A program made the translations under genes and the position numbers. Of a stretch of DNA of 64,000 nt, positions 296-37,190 are shown one piece after another (position 1 is the stretch's first letter; every line of letters begins with the position of its first letter). The notes beneath the pieces are model-generated. The model saw nothing but the letters and a program-made list of their open reading frames with translations, was not told where the DNA came from and searched no databases. The stretch lies in contig OZ024740.1 of assembly GCA_964016885.1 (NCBI GenBank), positions 284,146,001 to 284,210,000 on the forward strand. The letters run 5' to 3'. This DNA comes from Eledone cirrhosa (lineage: Eukaryota).

Positions 296-503
296 TTCGT
301 TTCTGAATTTGTTTAGCAAGATTCTTTATCTGAAATCGTGTGTTGAAACCGATATTGTTATACTTTGGGAGGGTCATGTTGCCAATAAGAAACACACGCA
401 CCAGTTGCTTTCACTTCAATTTATTATATATTTATAAATTTATAAACTTATAAATTTCTGGTTGGTTGGTTGGTTCCACAATCAGATAGTTGTTTATATA
501 TAT

Positions 504-548
504 AGTCATAGTCCTTTCGTCACACACTCTGTGACCTCTTCAGTGACT
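504..548 (-). ncRNA. Minimal type I hammerhead ribozyme (inverted pLTR copy)
   Basis: Reverse complement of 2780-2824. Confidence 0.65.
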
Positions 549-699
549 GGGGATTCCTTTCTTCGTTTCTGTGCCTTTCCTTTCTTCTATCCTACGCCAT
601 TTTGTTTCTGTGTGTGTGTTGTGTGCTCAGTTTGCACATGCGCCACATCCGGGTGTCTGTGTGTGTGTGTGTGTGTGTGTGTGTGTGTGTGTGTGTGTC

Positions 700-2474
700 T
701 GATCATACGCCCCATCATTGAGATGTCCCCAGATGTGTGTGACAGCACGGAGGACCTCCTCAGCAGAATCGGCGCGGGTAACCAATCTGGGGACCTAACA
801 AACTGCATAATAGGCAGTATGGATGTTGTGTCCCTGTATCCATCTATTGACGTGGATTTTGCTGTGGAGAAATGCGTAGAAATGATCAGCGAGAGCAAGG
901 TTGAGTTCCGTGGGACTGATACCAGTGAGCTGGGACTTCTACTTAAGCTTACCCATAGTAATAGTTACCTAGACACTTATGACCTTAGCAACCTGTGCCC
1001 TACAAGACCAGCAAGAGGCAGACCACCTACCATTACCTCAATGGCCAAGAAAACCCACACAGATAGATGGAACGGGTGGACCAGAGCCATACGGACACCC
1101 GAAAACCACGATGAACTGAAGAAAATGATTGCACATGCGGTAGGGGCCAGCATAAAATTAACCCTTAAGGAACATATGTTCAAATTTAATGGTAAAACAT
1201 ATGCCCAAGAGGAAGGAGCAGCCATTGGTGTTAGCATTGCAGGCGACATAGCTAACTTATTCATGGTATGGTGGGACAGTAGACTTAAACAAAAACTTAA
1301 TGAACAATTAGAAGACAGCTTAACCCTGATAATGTACTCCCGCTACATAGATGATATAAACATCGTAGTTAAGACACCCCCACTAAAGAACAGTCAGGAA
1401 CTAGAGAAAAACACAATGGAAAGCATCCAGCAAATAGCAAACTCCATCCACCAGAGCATTAGAGTTACTATAGACTACCCAAGTAGACACCCCAACCATC
1501 GATTACCTGTACTAGACACAGAGCTCTGGTTAGATACCATTAACAACCAAAAACAAATCCTCCATTCCCATTATGCCAAACCCATGACTTCCAAACATCT
1601 GATCCACCGAAACTCGGCCATTTCGGACCATACCAAAATCAACATACTGATTGCGGATTTGGTACGGGTGATGAGAAATGTGTCCCGCATGTGCAACCCC
1701 GAAGAACTAGAGAGACACATACAACACTTCATCCACCGTATGCAGTTCTCTGGCTACAATTAGAGAGATAGAATCAGAGTGTATAAAGGAGGCAGAACCA
1801 AATGGGAAAAAATGGTAAATAATGACATAAATGGGACCTGCCCCTTGTATAGGAGCAAATTTTGGAATAGAATAGAAAGAACTAGGAACAAGGCCAATAG
1901 AATAAACTCATGGTATGATAGCAATAAATACCAGAGTGTAATGTTCATCAATACAACCCCTAGAGGCGAACTAGCCTACAAATTTAGAAGGGCCCTAAAT
2001 AAACATAATCTCAATATTAAGATAGTAGAAAGACCTGGTACCTCCGTAAAAACACTTATTAGCAAGACATACCCGTTCCAAAGACCCTCATGTATAGATA
2101 AGAAATGTATAACCTGTAAAATAAGCCCCCATATTAACTGTGAAACTAGAAATGTAGTGTATAGCATAAGATGAACTGAAGGACAATGTAGAAACAAAAA
2201 TATAGTGTACATAGGTGAGACAGCTCGTAGTATAGGGGAACGAATAAATGAACACTGGCGAGACCTCCAAGATAATAAAGAATCATCTGTGCTCTACCAA
2301 CATGCTAAGATAGAACACAGGGGTAGATTAGAGAGCATAGAAATAAAAATAAAATCCACACACAGAAAAGACGCAGTGTTTAGGCAAATTACAGAGGCAG
2401 TAAGCATAAAAGAATTAAAACCAAAATTAAATAGAAAATATGAGTGGAACAGTAACATCACAACTTACAATTAA
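700..2474 (+). pseudogene. PLE polyprotein: reverse transcriptase + GIY-YIG endonuclease, interrupted by TAG (1761) and TGA (2172)
   Basis: ORFs 462, 1779 and 2205 share one frame. Motifs SMDVVSLYPSI, QEEGAAIG, RYIDD, Cys linker CIDKKCITC, NVVYSIR*TEGQC...YIGETAR. Long insert between RT motifs A and B, as I recall for Naiad. The N-terminal part of ORF 462 is just inverted pLTR. Confidence 0.88.
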
Positions 2475-34633: not shown

Positions 34634-34674
34634 CGATGTACTAGTTTCAAGCTTATTAGCTATCGTCAGCACCG
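34634..34674 (-). ncRNA. Minimal hammerhead ribozyme
   Basis: Minus strand: cggtg-CTGACGA-t-agct(aata)agct-t-GAAA-ctag-TA-catcg; palindromic stem III. Confidence 0.78.
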
Positions 34675-34867
34675 TATACCTTTCTGCCAGATGGTTGAAC
34701 GTCCGAAAGTATATATTTTCCTTATGAAAATTAGACACACGGTTTACTGTGTTTCTTACTGCATATATATTATTATACAGCTCAGTATTTTATACTTGGA
34801 GCTTAATAGTTACAGGGTTTCAATTGAAGTTTTAACTCTAATTTTCATATATATATATATATATATG

Positions 34868-37190
34868 CAAAAGTTTTATTTAAAATTGTTGGGATACAAC
34901 AAGTAAATATTTTATAACTGATATAAAGCACTCGACAAGTTTTTGGAGTAGATATACGATATTAAATAAATGGAAACTATATTTATAAAACCATATTTAT
35001 TTCATTATACATATTTCAGGGATACCAAATTAAAATATGGTATGCCATCATCAGACAAAATACAATATATAAACAGTTTTATAAATAATTTTGACGTACC
35101 CTATTAGAAGCGACCATTACTTTTGGAAGCTGTCTGGATAGTGATATGTTTATAATTATTTTATTAGTTGTAGTGTTAAGCACAGTTAGAAAAAAGACGG
35201 AGAGAAAAAGAGATAAGGAAGGAGAGAGAGAAAAACCTAACCAAAATACCAATAATAACCCAAACAATACTCAATTAAATAACTGTAACTGTAGAAATAA
35301 ATCTAACTGTCCGTTAAATAACAACTGCTTAGCTAAAAATGTAGTGTACAATTGTAATGTTAAAACTAATTTAAATTCTTTTAACTATGTTGGTTCCACC
35401 TCGACAGAATTTAAACTTCGCTTCAATAATCATAAAAATTATTTCACAGATCCAAACAAAAAATCCTCAACTTCGCTATCTAGCCTACTCTGGCACCTTA
35501 AACGAGATAATGTTAAATATTCGATGATTTGGAATATTGTCTCAAAAGGGATTCCTTTTAATTCCTCATCAGAGAATTGTGATCTTTGTGTAGAGGAAAT
35601 ATTCTTTATATTAAAGTCCAAAAATTCCCTTAATTTAAGGAGCAATTTATTCAGTTGCTGCAGACATAGATTGAACTCAACGTTTAAATATAAATATAAA
35701 TTTAAAATGTAGTATAATTAATTAAGAAATTTAGTTAATATATGAAACCTGATGATAAATCATTAGATTCCTTCACCTTTTTCTTTTTAAACTTTCTTCC
35801 TAAATATAAACAAGGATATAATAAACTACTCTAAAATGTATATGCTCCCAATGTATTAAATAAAATTTACGTAAGATAAATTCCTATACTAAATATAAGG
35901 TCATCCGTAAAATCACTGGGTCTTCTAAATCTTTTAAATTATTTTTGTTTTTTTATTTGTTTTTTTACCCTGATAGCTTCTAATAACTTTCATATGTCTA
36001 CCCTTGCAATATCTTGTTTGAGATATAGGTAGGATAGATTTCTATAATAAATATATAAAACATTGTTTTTAACTTGAGATACTCTATAGTGTGTTAAAGA
36101 TATTTTAATGCTTTGATATTTCTGTATTAATATATTGATATTTGATTATCTCTATACAAAGGCCATTTGTGTGTATTAACATGCATATAAAAGGTTTATA
36201 GAGTTTATTTATGTGTTCGAATATATGCATAACGATGCTGGAAAACTCACGCAGATGTTTATTTATACATATATTTGTGTATGTATGGTTGTGTGTGTAT
36301 ATGTTGATGTGTGGTGCAGATATGCATAATACATGAACGGTAATCATATATGTGAGGACAGGAATATTAATCGTATTTTTATGTATAGATACTGTGAAAT
36401 TTTTATAACACAATGAAATGTATAGAAGTGATCAAGTGAAATCATTTGTATGTCTATATTATTGACTGGAGTAGACATAATTTTCTCTTTTTTCAGAACG
36501 TACATATATATATACATATGTGTATCCGTATTTTTATAAATAGGTTTTTTTTTAAGGTTTTAACTCAGATTTTGGTATATTGACCTCAAGGTTTTAAACT
36601 AAACATATGGTCATTATTGAACAATATTATTTTCTCATATTATATATCTATGTCTCATTCATGAATATTGATATTTACATTTTTATTATTCATTTCATAT
36701 AAATTGTTAATTTAACTTAATATGACATGACGTAAAGTATCCTCCCCTCTCTATATAGTACTTCCTCTCTCTTGAGTTTCTCTATCTGTATGATGAATTA
36801 TTATCTCTCTGTTGCTTCCTTTGTATTTCTTATTTCTTTCTTGTTTCTTTCTTTTTCATTTCCTCCTATCTATTTTTATATATATCTTCCTTTTCTCTCT
36901 TTCCTTCTTTTCTCTCTCTCCTTCCTTATCTCTTTTTCTCTCCGTCTTTTTTCTAACTGTGCTTAACACTACAACTAATAAAATAATTATAAACATATCA
37001 CTATCCAGACAGCTTCCAAAAGTAATGGTCGCTTCTAATAGGGTACGTCAAAATTATTTATAAAACTGTTTATATATTGTATTTTGTCTGATGATGGCAT
37101 ACCATATTTTAATTTGGTATCCCTGAAATATGTATAATGAAATAAATATGGTTTTATAAATATAGTTTCCATTTATTTAATATCGTATAT
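34868..37190 (+). mobile_element. PLE 3' fragment (GIY-YIG) with inverted 5' pLTR
   Basis: Apparently identical inverted arms 34952-35234 / 36907-37190 around a GIY-YIG ORF; hammerhead-like motif at 37088-37134. Confidence 0.88.
35235..35712 (+). CDS. GIY-YIG endonuclease domain of a PLE (5'-truncated)
   Basis: CNCRNKSNCPLNNNC, NVVYNC, YVGST, FKLRFNNHK, CDLCVEE; paralog of 4666-5157. Confidence 0.82.

What the first reader, a model, noticed from the sequence alone, without database searches (positions are those of the whole stretch)
296..37190. Five PLE-type insertions share an asymmetric inverted-duplication architecture in (TA)n tracts
Seen: inverted duplications at 296-2973, 19015-19719, 32057-32275, 32517-32965 and 34868-37190, from four unrelated pLTR families, all inside (TA)n. 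In each, one arm stops at an internal AT/TA that merges into the microsatellite. The other arm runs about 57-87 nt further (296-354, 19663-19719, 32057-32123, 32879-32965, 34868-34951). In both coding copies the inverted arm is the longer one. Independent copies reuse the same short-arm endpoint (TATCGTAT at 32517 and 37188; TATAACAA at 2973 and 61727). Known: PLEs can carry inverted pLTRs and 3' tail extensions. Inference: both ends of a cut in (TA)n prime reverse transcription at two fixed sites near the RNA 3' end, and the cDNAs join head-to-head. I know of no description of this fixed offset.
Basis: partly seen in the sequence, partly recalled or inferred. Interest (0 to 1): 0.75.

Follow-up and report, generated by a model that had tools for sequence, protein, structure and literature searches.

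The report
Penelope insertions: one tail per hairpin
These five mirror-image inserts in TA repeats are real and match the already described 'inverted end plus tail' footprint of Penelope-like jumping genes; across many copies one arm almost always carries the tail and the other lacks it, likely because both cut DNA ends start copying one RNA at two fixed points.

Summary
All five inverted duplications, their one-sided 57-87 nt extensions and the shared short endpoints are real. They belong to one Neptune-type family (A), two Hydra-type families (C; D/E) and a non-coding retrozyme-like repeat (B). The extension is the known Penelope 'tail' (PMC8557442, PMC3846280). Copies elsewhere add detail. 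86 of 89 scorable head-to-head pairs have one long and one short end (44 expected). In family A, 11,019 copies end short and 10,521 carry the tail. The two arms of one insertion are far more alike than arms of different insertions. The proposed orientation rule fails: the tail sits on the longer arm in 25 pairs and on the shorter in 25. The sites lie inside the RNA, at the start of the ORF region, not at its 3' end. No long reads were available. The scan noted this pattern before, in this genome and in others. Verdict: new members of a known kind, with a modest quantitative addition.

The parts
296..354 (-). Family A tail (long end at 296); in a read-through copy it codes for about residues 8-27 of the ORF
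355..700 (-). Family A inverted arm with hammerhead core at 543
701..2973 (+). Family A main arm: 5'-truncated Neptune-type RT + GIY-YIG ORF remnant (about 723-2474, in-frame stops at 1761-1763 and 2172-2174), pLTR 2656-2973 with hammerhead core at 2785, short end
19015..19464 (-). Family B (retrozyme-like unit) inverted arm, short end at 19015, expanded internal (TA)n
19473..19719 (+). Family B arm with tail 19663-19719 (long end)
32057..32188 (-). Family C (Hydra-type) arm with tail 32057-32123 and hammerhead core at 32184
32196..32275 (+). Family C short-ended arm, hammerhead core at 32202, small internal duplication
32517..32693 (-). Family D/E (Hydra-type) short-ended arm, type I hammerhead core at 32616
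32701..32965 (+). Family D/E arm with hammerhead core at 32779 and tail 32879-32965
34868..35234 (-). Element E inverted arm with tail 34868-34951 and hammerhead core at 35054
35235..37188 (+). Element E main arm: Hydra-type endonuclease remnant (to 35712), long 3' UTR, pLTR with hammerhead core at 37088, short end
61492..61727 (+). Diverged solo family A copy ending at the short site
34359..34847 (-). Solo family B-related copy with long-type end and a variant hammerhead core at 34669, abutting element E across a short (TA)n

Best explanation
These are 5'-truncated insertions of Penelope-like retroelements (one Neptune-type and two Hydra-type families) and of a retrozyme-like tandem repeat, in which two head-to-head arms end at two fixed family-specific points, likely because both ends of a cut in (TA)n primed reverse transcription on one RNA, one at each point. 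Shown here: two discrete ends per family, one-long/one-short pairing, no link between the tail and arm length, high arm-to-arm identity, and internal position of both sites. Taken from PMC11167929 (a Poseidon element in vitro): the protein cuts AT-rich DNA on both strands, extends both, starts at two adjacent internal RNA sites, and is predicted to be a dimer. Inferred: a dimer occupies both sites of one RNA, each protomer uses one target end, and the two cDNAs are joined at their 3' ends with 0-4 nt overlap, short insertions or small palindromes. Also inferred, less firmly: many coding-free hairpins (C, D) come from priming at the pLTR/ORF junction near the RNA's 5' end, with both cDNAs running off at the transcription start; and family B is copied in trans by a Penelope protein.
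For: Pairs were chosen by a motif upstream of the short end, so blind to tail status. Long+short: D/E 31 of 33, A 25 of 26, C 15 of 15, B 15 of 15 scorable among 27 loci; pooled 86 of 89 vs 44 expected, P=1.7e-22. A further, non-overlapping part of contig C1, scored by coordinates: 16 of 19. 200 kb of evenly spaced DNA: 6 of 6 clear hairpins, 1 ambiguous. Genome-wide in family A: 11,019 short vs 10,521 tail-bearing of 26,074 motif matches. Median arm mismatch within vs between insertions: D 0.9% vs 7.3% (18 pairs), A 1.8% vs 7.6% (13 pairs). The short-ended arm reaches further 5' than the tailed arm in 25 of 50 unequal pairs, so neither arm is simply a DNA copy of the other. Inverted tail-only stubs sit beside short-ended arms (L034, L108; L252). 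Arm 5' ends pile up: D 33 of 54 at -161..-183 and none further, among 27 short-span pairs; C 15 of 24 at -56..-67, 30 nt behind TATAAATA. A read-through C copy starts at about -70 (L140).
Against: Exceptions exist: 3 of 89 pairs are long+long (L178, L179, L211), plus L010. By coordinates, 3 LL and 2 SS of 45; one SS (L252) resolves into two insertions, one (L251) does not, and one LL is a read-through tandem (L212). PMC11167929 saw no difference in start site between the two strands, and did not test pairing within one event. Arm identity could also come from one dominant source locus or from later conversion between arms; the two D long+long pairs tested were also identical, so identity does not separate pair types. 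Family A arms show no 5' pile-up. The D pile-up also coincides with a near-palindrome, so it does not prove a transcription start. About half of the motif hits have no exact-motif partner; of 39 such loci examined, many had no inverted arm. All pair samples come from contigs C1-C3, nearly all from C1.
Confidence: 0.72

Rival explanations
1. Both cDNAs start at the long site and one end is later trimmed to the short site by the element's endonuclease while the intermediate is resolved (the reading offered in PMC8557442).
For: It predicts one tail per insertion and a few untrimmed long+long pairs, as seen. PMC8557442 ascribes the tail to EN-mediated resolution. PMC11167929 cites earlier work that the tail is needed for EN recognition. 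Short ends lie at AT-rich points.
Against: PMC11167929 maps RT starts to both tail boundaries in vitro. Short ends are as common as tailed ends and occur on solo copies. Internal tandem units keep the short site uncut.
Confidence: 0.15
2. One cDNA is primed, folds back at a palindrome and copies itself, giving the inverted arm (self-priming, discussed in PMC3846280).
For: Several junctions are symmetric and sit on palindromes (L089, L102, L176, L192, L218). Arms are nearly identical.
Against: A fold-back copy must be nested in its template. The short-ended arm extends further 5' in 25 of 50 unequal pairs, and a short-ended arm cannot template a tail.
Confidence: 0.07
3. Two independent insertions into the same microsatellite, or assembly fold-back artefacts, mimic hairpins.
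For: Nesting in each other's (TA)n is common (L041/L141, L043/L208, L048, L058, L252). No long read spanning a hairpin was available.
Against: Arms join without (TA)n between them, pair long with short, are each other's close relatives, and differ by scattered substitutions. Head-to-head pairs outnumber tail-to-tail 45 to 3. The short end running into (AT)n appears in contigs of other runs (loose ends at 32878).
Confidence: 0.04

Closest known systems
EN+ Penelope-like element insertions with inverted pLTR and optional tail (PMC3846280, passages read; PMC8557442, passages and section 11 read)
   Same: 5'-truncated inverted copy adjoining the 5' end; a tail often at one end only, at either end; tail overlapping the first codons of the ORF (Pen2a_Av; family A here); palindromes at the inversion junction; (TA)n preference.
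   Different: Tails here are 57-87 nt instead of 30-40 bp. The passages read give no count of long/short pairing or of arm identity. No clear target-site duplication could be scored inside (TA)n.
Poseidon PAc of Anolis, internal initiation (PMC11167929; parts 1-2 of 4 read: abstract, main text, start of methods; supplement text search gave no hits, figures not seen)
   Same: AT-rich target, both strands cut and extended, two internal start sites at the pLTR-ORF junction that delimit the tail, hammerhead upstream.
   Different: Other clades (Neptune-type, Hydra-type) and a non-coding unit. The paper reports no strand difference in start site and does not discuss head-to-head products or pairing within an event.
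Hydra clade of C-terminal EN+ PLEs (PMC8557442 section 11)
   Same: CxCX5C linker, CxxC before the conserved E, CxH after the conserved N, hammerhead, (TA)n insertion in families C and D/E.
   Different: No tree was built. Elements here carry long 3' UTRs (about 1.2 kb in E).
Metazoan non-LTR retrozymes (PMC7229834, search listing only; bioRxiv 10.64898/2026.07.22.740005, part 1 of 5 and passages read)
   Same: Family B: tandem ~475-512-bp non-coding units, each with a type I hammerhead core.
   Different: B arrays are two-armed with PLE-type long and short ends; the preprint has no occurrence of 'tail'. Cleavage and circular RNA were not tested.

Membership tests
EN+ Penelope-like elements | Single ORF with RT and C-terminal GIY-YIG endonuclease | tested here: met
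   Window A: RVT_1 E=4.6e-5 and GIY-YIG E=3.5e-4, both below Pfam cut-offs. C and D/E gave no Pfam hit but align at YRDD, YxGxT, R, H, E and N.
EN+ Penelope-like elements | pLTRs in direct or inverted arrangement, 5' truncation, partial tandems | tested here: met
   L212 shows inverted arm + partial tandem + full ORF
EN+ Penelope-like elements | Optional 3' tail at one end | tested here: met
   longer than the 30-40 bp described
EN+ Penelope-like elements | Type I hammerhead in the pLTR | tested here: inconclusive
   CUGANGA..GAAA cores in both arms of A, C, D and E. A strict three-stem scan passed only D. Fold z-scores are not significant. No hammerhead among the 150 of 258 Rfam rows listed.
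Neptune clade (family A) | CX2-5CxxC linker before the endonuclease | tested here: met
   CIDKKCITC; motif definition from PMC8557442
Neptune clade (family A) | Placement in an RT phylogeny | not tested
   no reference set or tree built
Hydra clade (families C, D/E) | CxCX5C linker; CxxC and CxH around the conserved E and N | tested here: met
   CNCRNKSNC / CNCLNKEAC, CDLC, CRH / CMH against PMC8557442 section 11
Hydra clade (families C, D/E) | RWK and DKT motifs, RT phylogeny | not tested
   N-terminal parts of the C and D/E ORFs were not in the alignment
Non-LTR retrozyme (family B) | Tandem non-coding units each with a type I hammerhead | tested here: met
   L249: six units of 475-512 bp; core CUGAUGA..GAAA found in the two units scanned
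Non-LTR retrozyme (family B) | Self-cleavage and circular RNA | not testable with these tools
   the one run search was made with element E, not family B

The most novel reading that the evidence does not exclude
Penelope-type insertion is an obligatory two-site twin priming. One enzyme dimer holds one RNA at both tail boundaries and feeds one site to each end of the cut, so nearly every two-armed insertion carries exactly one tail. This holds across Neptune-type, Hydra-type and retrozyme RNAs, and the abundant coding-free hairpins are paired run-offs to the transcription start.
Probability: 0.5. Interest if true: 0.5.

Novelty: new member of a known kind. Interest (0 to 1): 0.28.

Why it matters
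PMC8557442 names the formation of PLE tandem and inverted structures as an open question, and PMC11167929 leaves the steps after priming unvalidated. The one-long/one-short rule, the lack of an orientation rule and the arm identity narrow the models: they favour two primings on one template over fold-back, and they give a direct prediction for the existing in vitro system. The same ends on a retrozyme-like repeat support Penelope proteins as its mobiliser. The architecture and the two start sites themselves are known.

Tried and rejected
Orientation rule: rejected (25 vs 25). ORF-bearing arms were tailed in L171, L172, L180, L201, L204 and short-ended in L199, L210, L212 and window A and E. 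Two short DNA queries returned nothing because common words are skipped; pattern searches replaced them. Rows left out of the pair counts: A L212-L214 (complex or direct), C L222 (nested: its inner pair would be long+long, its outer pair long+short), 12 of 27 B loci (an outer end not seen, or complex). C L219, L225 and L226 were scored by their outer pair, 5-8 kb apart. A first endpoint aligner gave false intermediate ends in (TA)n; k-mer classes were used instead. Target-site duplications: 5 of 74 pairs shared a 14+ nt flank word vs 8 of 219 mismatched controls, only L206 convincing; empty alleles were not available. The idea that long+long pairs come from two RNAs got no support. Tail hairpins: fold z-scores not significant for A, C and D; -2.09 for B. 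Rfam gave only microsatellite-driven miRNA matches below threshold. Runs: no RNA holder listed and no long reads; reads laid were family-wide, not locus-specific. Paper searches for an earlier count of the pairing found none; most subscription papers (including the 2005-2006 Penelope reviews cited) are outside that library, and the supplementary figures of PMC11167929 could not be seen and may bear on it.

Full report
Observation. All five inverted duplications are in the window at the stated places, with arm identities of 316/321 (A), 172/178 (D), 285/286 (E), 67/85 (C, one 13-nt gap) and 158/187 (B, internal (TA)n of unequal length). In each, one arm runs 57-87 nt further before entering (TA)n. 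D and E are one family (85-88%); A, B, C and D/E show no mutual hit. The window lies on contig C1 of a 3.0-Gb genome.

What the families are. A carries a broken, 5'-truncated RT plus GIY-YIG frame with a CX4CxxC linker, which is Neptune-type by the definition in PMC8557442. C and D/E link to ORFs (L222, L171, L180) with CxCX5C, CxxC and CxH motifs, which match the Hydra clade, described as inserting into (TA)n. No tree was built. B is a 475-512-bp non-coding unit that forms tandem arrays and has a type I hammerhead core, that is, retrozyme-like. Hammerhead cores lie in both arms of A, C, D and E, though only D passed a strict stem scan.

Two discrete ends. Exact motifs just upstream of the short end occur 5,564 (D/E), 26,074 (A), 13,778 (C) and 924 (B) times, with reversed controls at 0. 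Downstream of the motif, copies either enter (TA)n at once or after the same family-specific tail. In A, 11,019 matches end short and 10,521 enter the tail, together 83% of the 26,074. The extension is therefore element sequence. Read-through copies continue past the long end into the ORF (A: the tail codes for about residues 8-27; C: the tail lies in or just before the ORF start) or into the next unit (B). Both sites are thus internal to the RNA.

Pairing. Head-to-head pairs were taken from the first listed motif hits on C1, blind to tail status. One long plus one short end: D/E 31 of 33, A 25 of 26, C 15 of 15, B 15 of 15 scorable among 27 loci; the rest were long+long. Pooled, 86 of 89 against 44 expected, P=1.7e-22. 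Rows left out are listed under Tried and rejected. With the tail as query, 14 of 15 scorable partners among 30 loci were short. By coordinates alone, family A on the first 44 Mb of C1 gave 40 LS, 3 LL and 2 SS, of which 16, 1 and 2 lie outside the earlier sample; tail-to-tail pairs numbered 3. Twenty evenly spaced 10-kb stretches held 6 clear hairpins, all long+short, and 1 ambiguous.

Orientation. The tail was on the longer arm in 25 and on the shorter in 25 unequal pairs (arm lengths from coverage by one natural reference copy, so approximate). ORF-bearing arms are tailed in some copies and short-ended in others.

Template and junction. Arms of one insertion differ by a median 0.9% (D, 18 pairs) and 1.8% (A, 13 pairs), against 7.3% and 7.6% between insertions (the comparisons are not independent). 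Since the short-ended arm reaches further 5' in half of the unequal pairs, it cannot be a fold-back copy of the tailed arm, and the tailed arm cannot be a copy of it. Junctions show 0-4 nt overlaps, short insertions or palindromic centres. Arm 5' ends cluster at -161..-183 in D (33 of 54) and at -56..-67 in C (15 of 24), counted from the end of the motif. In C the cluster lies 30 nt behind TATAAATA, at a CCAGATT that fits the initiator consensus (consensus recalled, from no call), and a read-through copy starts there (L140). PMC8557442 places the Penelope start site in the pLTR. This suggests run-off at the RNA's 5' end. In D a near-palindrome at the same place is an equal candidate, and A shows no cluster.

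Mechanism. Most likely (0.72), the endonuclease cuts both strands in (TA)n, each 3' end primes at one of two fixed internal sites on one RNA, and the two cDNAs are joined head to head. The cutting, the two-strand extension, the two sites and the predicted dimer come from PMC11167929, for another clade. One site per target end, one RNA and the joining step are inferred from the counts above. Rivals: trimming by the endonuclease (0.15), fold-back (0.07), independent insertions or artefact (0.04).

Comparison. The inverted 5' copy, the tail at one end and the microsatellite bias are in PMC8557442. The inverted pLTR with an optional 31-bp tail overlapping the ORF start, and junction palindromes, are in PMC3846280. 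The fixed offset between two RT start sites is in PMC11167929. New relative to what I read: longer tails, the counted pairing rule, no orientation rule, and the same ends on a retrozyme-like unit. Five paper searches showed no such count, within the limits of the library. Earlier notes of this scan report the same pattern in this and other genomes; they are unchecked and are not counted as support.

Limits. No long reads and no RNA run were listed. Short-read and contig data show the short end entering (AT)n family-wide but do not confirm these loci. Target-site duplications could not be scored inside (TA)n, apart from L206.

Verdict. Real, new members of a known kind; interest 0.28.

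Noticed in passing
window 17303-17726 (continuing to about 17890): A sixth asymmetric hairpin: a 424-bp, 98% palindrome beside (TA)n whose right arm runs on into further sequence; no CUGANGA..GAAA core within 40 nt spacing. 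Family unknown.
   Followed up: partly
window 4417-5500: Another Hydra-type endonuclease remnant (CNCRNKANC) followed by a 113-bp direct duplication and a (TA)n tract.
   Followed up: partly
window 62974-63184: Imperfect inverted repeat around a (TA)n and an inner palindrome.
   Followed up: no
L238:347-5724: Family B arms are fused without (TA)n to the 5'-truncated end of a second Neptune-type RT + GIY-YIG ORF (680 aa, Pfam hits above cut-off): a possible template switch and a candidate mobiliser of B; one case only.
   Followed up: partly
L206:280-1060: A flank word of about 20 non-repeat letters plus (TA)n is duplicated on both sides of a long+short hairpin: a likely long target-site duplication.
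   Followed up: partly
window 1-295 and 2973-4020; L034, L087, L089, L092, L117: Flanking (TA)n tracts carry a locus-specific variant unit repeated many times next to the insertion, in several cases on both sides and in the same orientation; slippage during insertion or older tract expansion are both possible.
   Followed up: no
L041/L141, L043/L208, L048, L058: Different families insert into the (TA)n at each other's ends, forming stacks.
   Followed up: no
window 38629-40396 (-): Two open frames that look like a PIF1-type helicase and a Helitron-type Rep start (recalled motifs, not searched).
   Followed up: no
window 9102-9327, 14592-14822, 21193-21771, 55659-56016 and others: An abundant ~200-bp SINE-like repeat, once as an inverted pair at 55659-55994 around (AAT)n.
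   Followed up: no
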